IMG/VR virus record: IMGVR_UViG_3300014523_000071
Length of the DNA stretch: 5,285 nt
Direction: 5' to 3' (one strand)
Source of the DNA: a virus
Lineage: Duplodnaviria > Heunggongvirae > Uroviricota > Caudoviricetes
This document shows positions 1 through 5,079 of this stretch, piece by piece (within the stretch, counting starts at the first letter, position 1; each line of letters opens with the position of its first letter). The notes beneath the pieces are model-generated. The model saw only the letters and a list, made by a program, of their open reading frames with translations. It did no database searches and was not told the origin of the DNA. A program made the position numbers and the translations under genes.

Positions 1-1836
1 TTCTGCTGTAATTTGGCTTGAAAGTATAGGGCGTATCGCATTTGCAGCATTATTTAGCGCTCTTTCATAGGCTGGTGTTCCTGCTTTGGTGTTTGCCAAA
101 CGTAAGAGAGCATTCCTTGCTGCTTTTGACTCATACAAGCGCATCATTGCACCGAAACCAGCCTCAAGCCCCATTGATACGCCAAGAGTCGCAGTTGCGC
201 CAATCGTCCTTATCCTGTTGGCTTGCGATTGCCCCGTCTGAGTTACTACATTTGCGGTGTCTGACCTTGCTGTTTGCTGTAGAACTTCATGAAGAGAATC
301 AAGCTCTTTCATGTGCTTTCCAGAAAAAATAGTGTTGTAAATTTCACCGCCTGACTGAGATTTCAGCTTATTAACTTCAGTGATGAACTTGGCTGGAGAG
401 TCCCCGGCCTTTTCCGCTATTTTGCTGACGTAAGCTGCACGCATAGCATCTTTCCCCTTATCATCCAGTGCGCTCCAGATTCGTTTCACGTCAGATGGTT
501 TTCTGCTTAATACAACGGTATTTATAAGTTCAGGACTGGCTTCACTGCTTGCCTTGTTGAGCTTGTTGGCAATGTTTTTATTAAGCACCTTATTATAAAC
601 GTTTGCATAATCGGAATTTGCTTTAAGGTATTTTGCTGCGTCTGATGCACCGAGGTTTTTAGCAACTGCGTTACGAAGGTCTTTTGACATTGCATTCTCT
701 ACCATATTGGTAGCTGCTTTTGCCTGGTTGGGGAAGACCATAGCATCTCCCTGAACATTAGATCTAAATGCTGTTCTGTGCTGACGCAAGAGATCAAACG
801 TAACATCCAAATCAGTTGCAGGGTTTGCTAATTCTTCACGTAGGTTACGCAAGGATGTAAGCAGGCTTTGATTGGCAGACGTCCCAAGCCGTTCCTGTCT
901 TGCGATCGCTGTATTCAGAGCATTCATGGTATTTGTTGTATCAACTGCGGCATTACCCATTTTATTGGTGACGTCATTGATAACAGCGCCAGCGGCATCC
1001 TTCCGTCCCCTTAACGTGGTGGTCAGAGATTTCACCACATCATCAGGGTTGTACTCACCAAAACGGTCAAAATAATTACTTACCAGTTTACTACGCGTTG
1101 CATATTGCTCCGCTCGCTTTGATCCTGTCCCGAGCAAAGCCCCCTCGGCATCCTGAGTAAGGCCGCGAGTGAAAGCATTTTTCGGCGGGATAACATCAGA
1201 TGTCATTGGTGTCACGCCCATCGATTCTGATGTGGCAATTTTCTTCGCCACTTCTGGCGCAATATCACCTTTTATAGCCGTTATTCCACGCCCTATTCCC
1301 TTTGCTGCTGCGGAAAGAACACCCTGAGCGGCAAGGTTAACTCCGGCATTTTTAGCTGCATTTTGTGCGAAATCGCCTTTCTGATTTGCGGCCTCTGCCA
1401 GTGAGCCAATAGCCATGCTTCCTGCCGTTCCAACTCCTGGAACTAAATACCCGCCAATTGTTTCTCCAGCTTGCGCATAAGGGTCTGTCGGTCGATTGAC
1501 TGGACGATAGACATCATCCAATACTTTTGGCCCACCAAGCCCCTGACTGATTGCATTAATCAGACTTGCGCCACCCTGCAATACGTCAAATGGTATGTTT
1601 ACCAGACCACGACCAGCCTGTTCTGCAATTTGCCCTGCACTTTGACCACCAGTGAGCCAATCGCCAGCTTGTTGCATCAATGATGGTTCTTCCCGTGTTG
1701 GTGCATTATTGGCCTGATTAACTGTTTGTTGCTGAACAGCCTGACCAGCAAAATACTCATCAATGGCGGTGCCAATATCTTCGGTGCTCGTACCATCAGG
1801 AAAGGTAAATGTCTTACCGTTTGCAGTTACTTTCAT
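1..1836 (-). CDS. Large phage virion-associated protein (tape-measure-like or DNA-ejection/internal-protein-like), partial; 3' end lies beyond the left window edge, 612 codons in window
   Basis: I checked every plus-strand triplet from position 1 to 1836 in this register and found no tta/cta/tca, so the minus frame is open throughout. Start ATG is at 1836-1834 and overlaps the upstream gene's stop (minus-strand TGATG). N-terminus reads [31 protein letters not shown]; the protein is Ala/Gly-rich. Plus-strand ORFs across this span are all under 100 aa. Family assignment is inference only. Confidence 0.8.
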
Positions 1837-2828
1837 CATTCCACCGTAAATTGAATGCCTGATTTTGAGGTATATGATCCGGATTGACTCTGCTGCTGTT
1901 GGGTATTTGTCGGTTGTTGGTTATTGCTCTGTTGTTGACTATTTGCAGCACTTGAAACCACCAAAGCATCATAAACGCGACCAGACTGACCACGTAATGA
2001 GTTATATTGGCCCTGCATTTTTCGCATTTTTGTTTCAGTAGCAGCCTTGGAATCACCAGGCTGAGGCAGGTACATTTTGGAATACTCCTGCATCTCTGGC
2101 AGAGTAATTGCTGCACCTGTTTCTGGGCGCAAAATTGCATACAAGGCGTCTCTCGCATTTACCATATATTGCTGCTCCGCTGGTGATAGGCTTAAATTTG
2201 CAATAGTCCCATCACCAAGAGAGCGATTTATTAATGCAACTCGCTTAGGGTCAATGCTTTTACTAAGCTGATTCATTGAGTCCATTGAATCTTTTAATCG
2301 CAAAGCAAATCCTGCCGCCTTCTTGGAACCCTCATTAGCCTTATCTATGATGCTTTGCGCTTGTGGCAAACTAATTGGTTTAATGCCATCACCAGATATA
2401 GGTTGGTTTAGTTTTCCGGCTTCCTCGCTGCCATCGGTGTAATACTTAGTTACCGAGCCATCAGGATTGGTTTCAACCTTAAGTAATTTCTTAGCATTGG
2501 GATTAATTCCCGCCGCTGCCGCAAATGCCGCTGCACCATCTGGATCCGCCTTTAACATTTGCGCGTACTGATTGTAATTCTGCATTGCGACTGTTGGTGC
2601 ATATGCTGACGTTAACGCATTTGCTCGGCTAATATCCTGCCCTCTCGCCTGAAGTGCCTCGCCAGCCTGATTGCTGCGGATTGTCTCTGCCAGTCTGCCT
2701 CGGTCAATCTCACGACCAGCCATCTTGTCCTGAACAGCAAACGCCTTTTCTGGTCCAAGCGCACCGAGAGACATAGTAGTCAGCATGTGTGATAGCTGCT
2801 CTGGATTCTGGATACCTGTCTGAATCAT
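1836..2828 (-). CDS. Phage virion-associated protein with Gln-rich low-complexity C-terminus; probably a 5'-truncated remnant (frame stays open to 2942 with no start codon)
   Basis: 330-codon minus-strand ORF ending in TGA at 1838-1836, coupled to the downstream gene. No Shine-Dalgarno precedes the ATG at 2828. The same frame continues upstream as [38 protein letters not shown] with no ATG/GTG/TTG until a stop at 2945-2943. C-terminal tail is Q/N/S/T-rich ([19 protein letters not shown]). Confidence 0.7.
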
Positions 2829-2942
2829 CCAGTCAGCATTAGCACCAACGCGATTTAACCTGTCCTTGTTGTCAGTAATGAATTTACTGTAGGCTTCCGG
2901 TCCCTGAGAAAGAGCGACGTTACCGTAATAGTCCCCTGTCGG

Positions 2943-3215
2943 TTAGGGAAGCTGCGTGTTGAGCTGGAAGCAACAGAGAACAACCTCATTGATAGTGAAT
3001 GCCATGTTGCTGAACTGGAAGAAGCACTACGCGACAAGCAGGCGTTACTTGAAGCCTCAGAAAAGCGCATAGCAGAACAAAGCTCGATTGTTACAGCCGC
3101 TGAAAAACTGGTTCGCTGTAAAGGCCGCTATCACAGTGAGCAAAACTATCGTGCGCTGGCTGCATTGTTTGGCGTAACAGTGCCGGATTTACCACCACTG
3201 CAAGCAGATGATTAA
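2943..3215 (+). pseudogene. 5'-truncated fragment of an Ea22-like coiled-coil early-left-operon protein (C-terminal ~90 codons, no start codon)
   Basis: Plus frame is open from 2859 to TAA at 3213-3215 with no in-frame ATG. Translation LGKLRVELEATENNLIDSECHVAELEEALRDKQALLEASEKRIAEQ... is heptad-like. The GKLRVELE and KRIA motifs match what I recall of phage lambda Ea22 (memory only, not searched). It ends 10 nt before the SD and ATG of the next gene. Confidence 0.45.
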
Positions 3216-3225
3216 GGACTAACCT

Positions 3226-3798
3226 ATGACCACTATTACCAAAGAGCGACTACTGACAATCAAGCAGTGGCGCGAAACATACGGACCTGGTAGCAACGTT
3301 GTACTGCCAGCAGAAGAAGCGGAAGAACTGGCACGAATTGCTCTGGCATCGCTGGAAGCAGAACCTGTAAGCCAAACTTACAACTTGCCACAAACGCACT
3401 TTGAACAGGTTGCTGACCTTTACGAAATGCAATTTGATGACGGACGCACTTGTGCCTTTCATACTGATGCACAAAAGGCTGCGCAATGGCTTCGGGCATG
3501 CGACGGAAACAGGGTTCAGGAATACGTGAAACTGGAGCGACTGCAGAACGCGCTATCGGGCAACTCTCCGGTAATTCCGGATAGTTGGATAAGCTGTAGT
3601 GAGCGAATGCCGGAAAAGAATCAGAACGTGCTTATTTCGGTGAATTTCGATAGCTCTCTGGTTGAACCGCTAATATGCTCCGCACGCTATACCGGAAGCA
3701 CCTTTCGGCGCGGAGATGCAACGATTAAGCCGGGTAATGGTATTGAGCAAGCAACTCACTGGATTCCGCTACCGGAACCGCCGCAGGAGGCGAAATGA
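3226..3798 (+). CDS. DUF551-like phage protein (variable N-terminal domain plus C-terminal DUF551-type domain)
   Basis: 190-aa ORF with SD AAGGA 7 nt upstream of ATG 3226. C-terminal region WISCSERMPEKNQNVLISV...ATHWIPLPEPPQEAK fits the DUF551 signature as I recall it (W-I-x-x-x-E-R-x-P-E ... T-H-W-x-P-L-P-E-P-P). Stop TGA overlaps the next start (ATGA). Confidence 0.8.
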   Translation: MTTITKERLLTIKQWRETYGPGSNVVLPAEEAEELARIALASLEAEPVSQTYNLPQTHFEQVADLYEMQFDDGRTCAFHTDAQKAAQWLRACDGNRVQEYVKLERLQNALSGNSPVIPDSWISCSERMPEKNQNVLISVNFDSSLVEPLICSARYTGSTFRRGDATIKPGNGIEQATHWIPLPEPPQEAK

Positions 3799-4052
3799 TG
3801 GATGTAAAAGAGAAGGTTTTGCAGGTGATGCGTTCCCGGGCTGCCCTGCAAGATAAAGCTCTCGGCGGGGAATATCCATTCAGAATGGCAACCTGGAATT
3901 TGCGGTTGGCAATGGAGAAGGAATTTCCTGATGAAGAATGGCGTTCGGCAGATTTGCGCAAAATTCTTATGGAGANNNNNNNNNNNNNNNNNNNNNNNNN
4001 NNNNCATGCCAGCCGGATTGGTCAGGCGGTATGGAGACTGGAGGTGCGGTAA
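3795..4052 (+). CDS. Hypothetical small phage protein, interrupted by a 29-nt N run
   Basis: ATG at 3795 and 3798 preceded by GGAGG at 3786-3790. It overlaps the stop of the upstream gene and its own TAA overlaps the next ATG (TAATG at 4050-4054). The frame is maintained across the N block if the N count equals the true length. No family recognised. Confidence 0.65.
   Translation: MMDVKEKVLQVMRSRAALQDKALGGEYPFRMATWNLRLAMEKEFPDEEWRSADLRKILMEXXXXXXXXXXHASRIGQAVWRLEVR
3976..4004. other. Run of 29 N (assembly gap or masked bases) inside a CDS
   Basis: Directly visible in the sequence. Confidence 0.99.
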
Positions 4053-4333
4053 TGGCTAACCTGCAACTTGCCGTCAAAGGTGAATACTTCGATGCCATGA
4101 TTCGCGGAGATAAAACGGAAGAGTATCGCCTGTGTAATGACTACTGGAATAAGCGAATTATGTTCCGGGAATATGACCGCCTGATTATCACAAAGGGATA
4201 TCCGAAGCGCGACGACTCCAGTCGCAGAATTGATGTTCCGTATGGAGGATATGAAGTGAAAACAATCACACACCCCCACTTCGGTGATAAGCCGGTAAAG
4301 GTATACGCGATAAAGGTGAATATCAATTGCTAA
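4052..4333 (+). CDS. ASCH-domain-like (PUA-fold) small protein, 93 aa
   Basis: Strong SD GGAGGTG at 4040-4046, 7 nt before ATG 4052. N-terminal LAVKGEYFDAMIRGDKTEEYR contains the GxKxxExR motif characteristic of ASCH domains, in the usual N-terminal position, and the size is right for an ASCH fold. I placed the start at 4052 rather than the track's 3938 because of the SD and the TAATG coupling. Confidence 0.8.
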   Translation: MANLQLAVKGEYFDAMIRGDKTEEYRLCNDYWNKRIMFREYDRLIITKGYPKRDDSSRRIDVPYGGYEVKTITHPHFGDKPVKVYAIKVNINC

Positions 4334-4349
4334 ATTAGTGGCATAGCAT

Positions 4350-4388
4350 AAAGATGCTTGCATTAATGAAGTGTGTATAATAACGCCT
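4350..4388 (+). promoter_or_regulatory. Candidate sigma70 extended -10 promoter (TGTGTATAAT) for the downstream small ORF
   Basis: Perfect TATAAT at 4376-4381 immediately preceded by TG at 4374-4375, in an AT-rich intergenic region. There is no good -35 at 17-bp spacing. The palindrome CATTAATG at 4361-4368 lies just upstream. Confidence 0.45.
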
Positions 4389-4444
4389 CATCAATTGTAA
4401 ACTACTGAAATAGCAAAAAATGCATATTAAAGAGGATTCGAAAA

Positions 4445-4636
4445 TTGAAAATGTTCATGCAAATAGACAGACGCATAGATCTTAATGGCAATTCATACTT
4501 AGTTAGATGCGAAGAGAGGCCTAACGGTGAGTGGCGTGTATATGATATTGACCGTAAGATCAATATCAGCACCATGAACAAAGACACTGCCTTTGATGAA
4601 TGGAAAGCTGAAGCTAAAAAACAACATAATTCGTAG
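4445..4636 (+). CDS. Small hypothetical protein (61-63 aa)
   Basis: SD AGAGGA at 4431-4436. Start is either TTG 4445 (8-nt spacing) or ATG 4451; stop TAG at 4634-4636. Translation MFMQIDRRIDLNGNSYLVRCEERPNGEWRVYDIDRK... matches no family I recognise. Local sequence is noticeably AT-rich relative to its flanks. Confidence 0.6.
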   Translation: MKMFMQIDRRIDLNGNSYLVRCEERPNGEWRVYDIDRKINISTMNKDTAFDEWKAEAKKQHNS

Positions 4637-4678
4637 AATTACAAAAACCCTAACCAATTGATGGATTTCTTTTATCTG

Positions 4679-4703
4679 AACTCGCTACAGCGAGTTTTGT
4701 TTT
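4679..4703 (+). terminator. Candidate rho-independent terminator or attenuator hairpin
   Basis: 7-bp stem AACTCGC / GCGAGTT (4679-4685 with 4690-4696), loop TACA, followed by TTTGTTTT. The T tract runs directly into the SD and start of the next gene, so read-through is plausible. Confidence 0.5.
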
Positions 4704-4715
4704 ATGGAGATGATT

Positions 4716-5015
4716 ATGGCCTGTTCAACATTCAACCCTCTAACGTTACAGAAATACCAGCCAGCCCCTGAAGATTTATGCTCACTGTGTGGCGGAAATC
4801 ATGGTAAAGCCGCCATGATTGAATGTAAGGACAAAATCCACATTTGCCTTAATTGCGTTGATGTCCTCGTTGATATCAAAAATGAGAGAGAAGATAAAAA
4901 GCGTAGCGAGGCTGTTCGAGCCTTAGATTCATGGATGCGAGATGGGTATAGTGCCGCGCAAATTTATGACTTAGCAATATCAAAAGGCGAAATACCAGGA
5001 GTGCGCATCGAATAA
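4716..5015 (+). CDS. Small Cys4 zinc-ribbon protein (CxxC...CxxC) with helical C-terminal half
   Basis: SD GGAGA at 4706-4710, 5 nt before ATG 4716 (the track's 4704 start is in the same frame). Contains CSLCGG and, 18 residues later, CLNCVD, which is typical zinc-ribbon spacing. Flanked by hairpin terminators on both sides. Confidence 0.7.
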   Translation: MACSTFNPLTLQKYQPAPEDLCSLCGGNHGKAAMIECKDKIHICLNCVDVLVDIKNEREDKKRSEAVRALDSWMRDGYSAAQIYDLAISKGEIPGVRIE

Positions 5016-5052
5016 GACGTAACCAATATTTGTATTGAAGAACTGAAAGAAC

Positions 5053-5079
5053 AAGCCGCCTGATGGCGGTTTATTTTTG
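5053..5079 (+). terminator. Rho-independent terminator
   Basis: 8-bp stem AAGCCGCC / GGCGGTTT (one G-U pair), loop TGAT, followed by ATTTTTG; about 40 nt after the stop of the zinc-ribbon CDS. Confidence 0.6.

What the first reader, a model, noticed from the sequence alone, without database searches (positions are those of the whole stretch)
4334..4703. AT-rich self-contained unit: extended -10 promoter, 63-aa ORF, hairpin
This stretch is visibly more AT-rich than the flanking genes and has its own promoter-like element (TGTGTATAAT), its own SD and a downstream hairpin with T tract. That is the typical layout of an independently acquired moron. The encoded protein (MFMQIDRRIDLNGNSYLVRCEERPNGEWRVYDIDRK...) matches no family I can name. 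The 5' leader of about 60 nt could carry regulatory RNA structure.
Basis: partly seen in the sequence, partly recalled or inferred. Interest (0 to 1): 0.5.

Follow-up and report, generated by a model that had tools for sequence, protein, structure and literature searches.

The report
Small low-GC phage gene cassette
This is a real 63-codon phage gene of unknown function on a roughly 330-base AT-rich cassette, swapped into the early-gene region of an E. coli prophage; it looks like a "moron", but its own promoter is unproven and the terminator it uses belongs to the surrounding phage, so it is fairly ordinary.

Summary
Bases 4325-4662 are the most AT-rich stretch of the window (34% GC against 44-49% in the flanks). 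They carry a genuine 63-aa gene: TTG start at 4445, stop at 4636, Shine-Dalgarno GAGGA 8 nt upstream. Against the 67%-identical phage HK639 gp31 the differences fall 13/13/34 by codon position (pN 0.21, pS 0.81). The protein belongs to phrog_16329, a very small family.

Related prophages (933W, O157, O111) have the ASCH gene and the L0063-like gene adjacent. There, 30 nt stand where this window has 338 nt, so the extra-DNA and odd-composition criteria of a moron are met.

Three claims fail:
- The TG of the "extended -10" is one base out of register. No -35 exists, and two scans do not single the site out.
- The hairpin with T tract (4678-4697) is backbone DNA, present without the cassette. The cassette removed the 5' arm of a second terminator.
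- The leader has no structure and is the most variable part.

The gene is co-oriented with the early-left operon, so it is probably read from pL. Autonomous expression in lysogens is possible but unproven. The AlphaFold model (pLDDT 89) shows four strands and a helix, with no informative match. RefSeq leaves the gene unannotated in E. coli.

The parts
4052..4333 (+). ASCH-domain gene (93 aa), the upstream neighbour. Its last three codons (from 4325) belong to the cassette-specific sequence.
   Evidence: RefSeq annotation of identical loci; phrog_625 E 1e-49; weak Pfam ASCH match.
4325..4662 (+). Low-GC mosaic cassette. 338 nt stand here where cassette-less relatives have 30 nt. The left joint follows GTGAATATC (4316-4324). 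The right joint lies between about 4651 and 4662, depending on the relative compared.
   Evidence: Alignment A2 with 933W, O157 F6294 and O111; break points across 45 loci; GC 0.344.
4322..4369 (+). Copy 1 of an imperfect direct repeat. It covers the ASCH 3' end, the stop codon and about 35 nt.
   Evidence: local alignment score 36, against shuffles of 14.5 +/- 2.5 (maximum 27 in 2000).
4390..4433 (+). Copy 2 of the direct repeat (period 68). It is a relic of an ASCH-type gene end (ATCAATTG-TAA) just upstream of the Shine-Dalgarno.
4376..4381 (+). Perfect -10-like hexamer TATAAT, preceded directly by TGTG (4372-4375). It is a candidate weak promoter and is unproven. Three of 21 haplotypes read AATAAT.
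   Evidence: Sequence; not called by the scan; rank 31 in my rough weight-matrix scan; polymorphism.
4429..4436 (+). Shine-Dalgarno AAAGAGGA, 8 nt before the TTG start.
   Evidence: Sequence; equivalent SD-to-start spacing in homologues.
4445..4636 (+). 63-aa gene with a TTG start. It belongs to phrog_16329 and is a homologue of HK639 gp31. The predicted fold is four beta-strands followed by a C-terminal helix.
4663..4675 (+). Remnant of backbone terminator 1: its 3' stem arm and U tract (GGATTTCTTTTAT). The cassette replaced its 5' arm.
   Evidence: Alignment A2; fold of the cassette-less allele shows a 9-bp hairpin with a U tract.
4678..4705 (+). Backbone terminator 2: an 8-bp hairpin followed by TTTTGTTTTAT. 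It probably ends any transcript not modified by antitermination. It was not acquired with the ORF.
   Evidence: present in loci without the cassette; fold.
4716..5015 (+). Downstream neighbour: a 99-aa homologue of 933W L0063 (phrog_3680) with a weak ClpX-type zinc-ribbon resemblance.

Best explanation
The feature is a mosaic accessory-gene cassette in the early-left (pL-side) 'ea' region of a lambdoid/P22-like E. coli prophage.

Shown:
- About 330 nt of low-GC DNA (4325 to about 4655) sit between the ASCH gene and the L0063-like/xis/int genes. Relatives have only a 30-nt spacer there, containing the 5' arm of the first of two tandem terminators.
- The cassette carries one real gene of 63 codons (TTG at 4445). 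It is under purifying selection and belongs to a tiny phage-only family (phrog_16329, HK639 gp31).
- The family recurs in at least seven lineages. In every one the gene is co-oriented with the early operon and lower in GC than its host phage. In the four distant lineages whose downstream sequence was read, it is the last gene before an intrinsic terminator.

Inferred:
- No terminator separates ASCH from the ORF and the strands agree. The gene is therefore transcribed by antiterminated early-left transcription after induction or infection.
- Unmodified polymerase stops at the backbone hairpin 4678-4697, which shields xis and int.
- A weak autonomous promoter (TATAAT 4376-4381, no -35) may add low-level expression in lysogens. 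This is unproven.
- Translation is kept low, since five of seven lineages use a TTG or GTG start.
- The product is a 7.6-kDa soluble protein with no signal peptide or membrane segment, about neutral in charge, folded as four strands and a helix. It most likely acts stoichiometrically by binding a host or phage macromolecule, as small phage early proteins usually do. The target is unknown.
For: Cassette boundaries and presence/absence.

Composition. ORF GC is 0.38-0.45, against locus GC of 0.47-0.54, in all seven contexts.

Coding:
- Differences from HK639 fall 13/13/34 by codon position, with pN 0.21 and pS 0.81.
- No other frame shows this pattern.
- pN is below pS in all 21 pairwise comparisons.
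- Across 21 haplotypes the ORF has 8 variable sites in 192 nt, against about 20 in the 111-nt upstream spacer. The ORF changes are synonymous or conservative.

Start codon: an ATG, GTG or TTG sits at the equivalent position in seven lineages, each with a Shine-Dalgarno.

Operon context.

Overlap with the upstream gene in L009 and L012.

Terminators after the ORF in HK639, L011, L010 and L009.

Structure: pLDDT 88.8, pTM 0.73.

Protein properties.
Against: - No expression data of any kind were available, so the route of transcription is inferred from layout alone.
- In HK639-type phages a ~125-nt non-coding stretch with a promoter-like TTGCCG-17-AATAAT travels with the ORF and its terminator behind four different upstream genes. 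That is the classical moron layout and favours the autonomous-promoter rival.
- The block 4341-4383 around the -10 is nearly invariant among 21 haplotypes, while 4384-4444 is highly variable. This could reflect constraint on a promoter, although the variable sites are phylogenetically linked.
Confidence: 0.6

Rival explanations
1. It is a true moron. The cassette is an autonomous transcription unit, fired from the TATAAT promoter at 4376-4381 (start near 4388) in the repressed prophage. Transcripts end at the hairpin 4678-4697. The protein benefits the lysogen, for example through exclusion, defence or altered host physiology.
For: - The segment is extra DNA between genes that are adjacent in relatives, and its GC is deviant. 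These are two defining features in Cumby et al. 2012 (PMC3594210).
- It has a perfect -10 hexamer, the only one on this strand.
- A 111-nt non-coding spacer is retained in an otherwise tightly packed operon.
- The block around the -10 is nearly invariant.
- HK639-type cassettes carry promoter-like hexamers, the ORF and a terminator as one mobile unit behind four different genes.
- L011 shares TGTG directly before GATAAT.
Against: - There is no -35, the TG is off register, the scan did not call the site, and it ranks 31st in my rough scan.
- Three haplotypes have the -12 T changed to A.
- The terminator is backbone DNA, and the dinI-context copies have no terminator right after the ORF.
- L009 and L012 homologues have no intergenic space at all.
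- AT-rich foreign DNA often contains chance -10-like hexamers. This last point is established knowledge and was not tested here.
Confidence: 0.3
2. The protein is an antitoxin-like or immunity-like inhibitor, resembling the HicB N-terminal domain or TriX. It would neutralise a host toxin or defence effector.
Against: - No Foldseek match reaches E 0.001.
- There is no conserved neighbouring partner gene across contexts.
- PADLOC gives no hit.
Confidence: 0.08
3. The ORF is spurious, and the segment is a non-coding regulatory or small RNA element. RefSeq leaves it unannotated.
For: - PGAP annotates no CDS here in the RefSeq loci examined.
- The region is AT-rich and has nearby hairpins.
Against: - There is a strong codon-position signature and conserved ORF ends across seven lineages.
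- The phrog_16329 match is full-length at E 1e-48.
- There is no Rfam match in the unit at E up to 1.
- Folding is no better than shuffles.
- The AlphaFold model is confident.
Confidence: 0.02

Closest known systems
Morons of lambdoid phages (Juhala/Hendrix concept; HK97 gene 15, lambda bor and lom; reviewed in Cumby et al. 2012, PMC3594210)
   Same: - The DNA is extra compared with closely related phages and lies between genes that are otherwise adjacent.
- Its GC content differs clearly from that of its neighbours.
- It carries a single small gene, with a -10-like element upstream and a terminator downstream.
   Different: - The promoter is unproven and weak by sequence.
- The terminator was already in the recipient genome and did not come with the gene.
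- The gene lies in, and is co-oriented with, the early-left operon, so it does not need its own promoter.
- Some family members are translationally coupled to the preceding gene.
Escherichia phage HK639 gene 31 (YP_004934061.1, hypothetical protein) and PHROG family phrog_16329
   Same: - It is a homologue: 67% amino-acid identity over 61 residues, with a full-length profile match at E 1e-48.
- It occupies the same position at the distal end of the early-left operon near int.
- It is followed by an intrinsic terminator.
   Different: - HK639 gene 31 is annotated with a 26-codon N-terminal extension that is absent from the homologues in other lineages and is probably non-coding.
- Its flanks, upstream region and terminator sequence are all different.
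- HK639 starts with ATG where this window has TTG.
Non-essential 'ea'/b-region accessory genes of lambda and P22 (ea8.5, ea22, eaA-eaI, lambda orf61/orf63)
   Same: - They lie between the recombination genes and xis/int.
- They are small, dispensable and highly mosaic.
- They are expressed from pL under antitermination. That last point is established knowledge of lambda, not tested here.
   Different: There is no sequence relationship. No solved structure matches by sequence, and only HK639 and one Stx2a phage among 50,697 phage records encode a relative.

Membership tests
Moron (Cumby et al. 2012, PMC3594210) | Extra DNA between genes that are adjacent in related phages | tested here: met
   ASCH and the L0063-like gene are adjacent in 933W, O157 F6294 and O111. 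There, 30 nt stand in place of 338 nt.
Moron (Cumby et al. 2012, PMC3594210) | [quoted passage not shown] | tested here: met
   GC is 0.344, against 0.493 and 0.437 in the flanks. This falls in the lowest 0.5% of 340-nt windows. The family ORF is below its locus GC in all seven contexts.
Moron (Cumby et al. 2012, PMC3594210) | Own promoter | tested here: inconclusive
   There is a perfect TATAAT, but no -35, and the TG is off register. The scan did not call the site, and it ranks 31st in my rough weight-matrix scan. The block around it is conserved. HK639-type cassettes carry TTGCCG-17-AATAAT.
Moron (Cumby et al. 2012, PMC3594210) | Own terminator, belonging to the inserted unit | tested here: not met
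   The hairpin 4678-4697 is present in loci that lack the cassette, and is absent after the cassette in the dinI-context copies. A usable terminator is nevertheless 42 nt downstream of the stop. Distant homologues each have their own terminator.
Moron (Cumby et al. 2012, PMC3594210) | Expression from the repressed prophage | not testable with these tools
   This needs RNA 5'-end mapping or a reporter assay in a lysogen.
Extended -10 (TGn) sigma-70 promoters | TG at -15/-14, one base upstream of the -10 hexamer | tested here: not met
   The sequence is gTGTG-TATAAT. G is at -13, T at -14, G at -15 and T at -16. The scan tool did not report the site at all.
phrog_16329 / HK639 gp31 family | Full-length sequence match to the family profile | tested here: met
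   E 1.3e-48 over residues 1-63 of a 63-position profile. There are 16 invariant residues across 8 members.
HicB-type antitoxin or immunity protein | Adjacent cognate toxin gene and specific fold similarity | tested here: not met
Known regulatory RNA or sRNA (Rfam) | Covariance-model match or significant conserved structure | tested here: not met
   No Rfam match falls within 4300-4720 at E up to 1. Leader folds give z of -0.27 and -0.51. The leader is the most variable part.

The most novel reading that the evidence does not exclude
The cassette is a genuinely autonomous, lysogen-expressed unit. Its tiny protein (four strands plus a helix) is deliberately translated at low level, since five of seven lineages use a TTG or GTG start. 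It would be a new stoichiometric inhibitor of a host nuclease, toxin or defence effector, or conversely a superinfection-exclusion factor. That would make it an uncharacterised anti-defence or defence family, missed by RefSeq annotation in E. coli.
Probability: 0.12. Interest if true: 0.55.

Novelty: new member of a known kind. Interest (0 to 1): 0.25.

Why it matters
The importance is modest.
- It is a clean, base-resolved example of mosaic exchange in lambdoid prophages. An AT-rich one-gene cassette replaced half of a tandem terminator.
- It flags a real, conserved small gene that NCBI's pipeline leaves unannotated in E. coli RefSeq genomes.
- If the protein turned out to be an anti-defence or exclusion factor, it would add a family to a field that is actively mining exactly these accessory regions. 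Nothing found here shows that.
- It also shows that 'promoter + ORF + hairpin' read by eye can overstate how self-contained a unit is.

Tried and rejected
- Rfam scan of the whole window at E up to 1: nothing in the unit. The only hit is a sub-threshold STnc420-like match at the next terminator, 5033-5079.
- Pfam, NCBIfam and PADLOC for the 63-aa protein: no hits.
- Profile search of PDB sequences: only noise.
- Exhaustive HMMER search of 1.8 billion representatives: 8 hits, of which 2 are spurious repeat proteins, P0010 and P0011.
- Word-indexed profile search of 5.8 billion proteins: 13 clusters.
- Scan of species-representative genomes: no relative.
- Regulatory leader structure: rejected.
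- Long-range pairing TTGCAT.../...ATGCAA around the start site. It is perfect over 10 nt in L010 and 8 of 9 in the window. The window's minimum-energy fold does not use it, and it is absent in HK639 and L011, so I treat it as coincidence.
- Antisense ORF 4402-4587: rejected, because the codon signature is weaker than in the sense frame.
- Literature search for HK639 gene 31: nothing relevant.
- The hairpin after the ASCH stop (4334-4367) as a conserved element: 17 of 21 haplotypes carry a mismatch in the stem, so I make no claim for it.

Full report
**Context.** The + strand from about 2941 onward is the distal part of the early-left (pL-side) operon of a lambdoid/P22-like E. coli prophage. 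In order it holds:
- an ead/Ea22-like C-terminus;
- a DUF551 gene (3226-3798);
- a DUF4752-like gene (3795-4052, interrupted by a masked N run at 3966-4004);
- an ASCH-domain gene (4052-4333);
- the finding;
- a 99-aa homologue of 933W L0063 (4716-5015);
- an AlpA/excisionase-like gene (from 5094).

In near-identical RefSeq loci the same series continues into xis, int and the attachment site, and is preceded by cIII, kil, erf and abc. All these genes share one orientation.

- The segment is the most AT-rich part of the window. GC is 0.344 for 4323-4662, against 0.493 upstream and 0.437 downstream. Only 0.5% of 340-nt windows are as low.
- The ORF 4445-4636 exists, and AAAGAGGA lies 8 nt before its TTG.
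- The hairpin at 4678-4697 with a T tract is called as terminator-like.
- A perfect TATAAT lies at 4376-4381, the only one on this strand.
- The 'extended -10' does not hold. The hexamer is preceded directly by TGTG, so TG falls at -16/-15 and -14/-13 rather than at -15/-14.
- TTGCAT (4358-4363) is only 12 nt upstream of the hexamer, and hexamers at 16-18 nt match TTGACA at 0-2 positions.
- The consensus scan did not report the site. A rough weight matrix that I wrote from textbook base frequencies ranked it 31st on the + strand.

**The ORF is a real gene.**
- It matches phrog_16329 end to end (E 1.3e-48).
- Among 50,697 phage records, only a Stx2a phage (97%) and HK639 (67%; gene 31, annotated as hypothetical) encode a relative.
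- The window-HK639 DNA alignment is conserved only inside the ORF. Differences fall 13/13/34 by codon position, with pN 0.21 and pS 0.81. No other frame shows this pattern.
- Two very large protein searches found only 13 clusters, and 8 representatives of which 2 are spurious.
- Seven lineages were recovered with DNA: the window, HK639, L046, L011, L010, L009 and L012. pN is below pS in all 21 pairs.
- Among 21 haplotypes of the E. coli cassette, the ORF has 8 variable sites in 192 nt, all synonymous or conservative. The 111-nt spacer upstream has about 20.
- The start is the codon at 4445. Five of seven lineages use a non-ATG start.
- HK639's annotated 26-codon extension has no counterpart in the homologues from other lineages. 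Between HK639 and L046 it has a higher pN/pS than the core (0.54 against 0.19).

**Boundaries.**
- In 933W, O157:H7 F6294 and O111:H8 08-4455 the ASCH gene is followed directly by the L0063-like gene.
- Alignment A2 shows identity up to GTGAATATC (4316-4324) and again from GGATTTC (4663). Between these points the relatives have 30 nt and the window has 338 nt.
- The relatives' 30 nt plus the shared GGATTTCTTTTAT form a strong 9-bp terminator hairpin.
- So the cassette replaced the 5' arm of terminator 1, and terminator 2 is recipient-backbone DNA. About 270 of 297 matching E. coli genomes, and most of 181 phage records, match only this hairpin and the start of the next gene.
- Other copies of the same cassette end at about 4653 and continue into a LexA-box/dinI-like unit. 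Others end at 4710/4714, followed by a different gene.
- On the left, nearly all copies share homology from the ASCH start (4053). One copy (L031) joins at 4292. In E. coli, ASCH and the ORF therefore usually move together.

**An internal duplication.** Bases 4322-4369 (the ASCH 3' end, the stop and about 35 nt) recur imperfectly at 4390-4433. The alignment score is 36, against shuffles of 14.5 +/- 2.5. The TATAAT lies in the 20-nt joint between the copies. This suggests the ORF once sat about 45 nt behind an ASCH-type gene end, and that the longer spacer, with its -10-like hexamer, arose by a local duplication. This is an inference.

**Promoter: for and against.**

For:
- The -10 hexamer is perfect.
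- The block 4341-4383 is almost invariant, while 4384-4444 is very variable. The variable sites are linked in a few lineages, however.
- In HK639-type phages a 125-nt non-coding stretch, the ORF and a terminator travel as one unit behind four different upstream genes. Homology begins exactly at the upstream stop codon. The stretch contains TTGCCG-17-AATAAT, and both hexamers are kept in a diverged variant.
- L011 has TGTG-GATAAT at the corresponding place.

Against:
- The sequence is weak by the standard criteria, as described above.
- Three haplotypes have the hexamer changed to AATAAT.
- In L009 and L012 the gene overlaps the stop of the preceding HOT-like (DNA_pol3_theta) gene (ATGA), which leaves no room for an intergenic promoter.

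The question cannot be settled without RNA data.

**Leader.** The predicted 57-nt leader and longer versions fold no better than shuffles (z -0.27 and -0.51). Rfam finds nothing. The region carries indels. The regulatory-leader idea is not supported.

**Most likely mechanism.** The gene is co-oriented with the operon and no terminator lies between ASCH and the ORF. It is therefore read by antiterminated early-left transcription during lytic growth. This follows from lambda biology and was not tested here. Unmodified polymerase should stop at 4678-4705. A weak promoter of its own may add basal expression in lysogens. I put about 0.3 on that being the main mode. The protein probably acts by binding some host or phage macromolecule at low dose; this is a guess from its class.

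**Comparison and verdict.** Against the moron definition in PMC3594210, two features are met: extra DNA and deviant GC. One is inconclusive (promoter), one is not met for this copy (own terminator), and one is untestable here (expression in the lysogen). The best description is a moron-like accessory-gene cassette of a catalogued but uncharacterised family. RefSeq's failure to annotate the gene in E. coli is a small practical point. Interest is low to moderate.

Noticed in passing
window 2923-2940: There is an abrupt junction between minus-strand P22-type DNA-transfer (injection) protein genes (1-2922; the Inj_translocase match is on the ORF 1836-2828) and the plus-strand ead/Ea22-like C-terminus. 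None of 5,426 complete E. coli genomes carries this junction, although each half is common. The cause is either a rearranged or deleted prophage, or an assembly chimera.
   Followed up: partly
window 3966-4004: A run of 39 N (masked) lies inside the DUF4752-like gene, so that gene cannot be read completely.
   Followed up: no
window 4322-4369 and 4390-4433: An imperfect direct repeat with period 68 duplicates the ASCH 3' end, its stop codon and about 35 nt. The candidate -10 hexamer sits in the joint between the copies.
   Followed up: yes
L006 2786-2850 (O157:H7 F6294); also 933W and O111: Prophages without the cassette carry two tandem intrinsic terminators between ASCH and the L0063-like gene, upstream of xis and int. 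The pair folds with z -2.98. The second hairpin region acts as a shared joint next to different downstream genes.
   Followed up: partly
L036 3400-3690; L031 3390-3500: In one group of prophages the cassette is followed by a LexA box (TACTGTGTTTATATACAGT) and a gene that I read as dinI-like from its translated sequence. I did not check this with a search. If correct, it is a separate SOS-controlled moron.
   Followed up: no
L004 3881-3911 (HK639): The HK639-type cassette begins, right after the upstream stop codon, with a near-perfect 14-bp hairpin (ACTGATAGCCAGTT / AGCTGGCTATTGGT) that has no U tract. The cassette sits behind four different upstream genes. What the hairpin does is unknown.
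   Followed up: partly
L010 4942-4951 and 5009-5018; window 4358-4366 and 4454-4462: Complementary segments (perfect over 10 nt in L010, 8 of 9 in the window) bracket the Shine-Dalgarno and the start codon. The pairing is predicted to form in L010 (z -2.0) but not in the window, HK639 or L011.
   Followed up: partly
window 5033-5079: A terminator (5053-5072) follows the 99-aa gene, with a sub-threshold Rfam STnc420 match (23 bits against a gathering score of 70; E 0.34).
   Followed up: no
window 4716-5015: The 99-aa homologue of 933W L0063 shows a weak resemblance to the ClpX-type C4 zinc ribbon (Pfam E 0.014, NCBIfam ClpX E 0.002; both below the family cut-offs).
   Followed up: no
proteins P0003-P0007: Several database copies of the 63-aa protein have altered ends. 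Some C-termini differ from the Lys-rich stretch (AEAKK) onward, and some N-termini are replaced, including a Salmonella remnant. These are decaying copies or sequencing errors.
   Followed up: no
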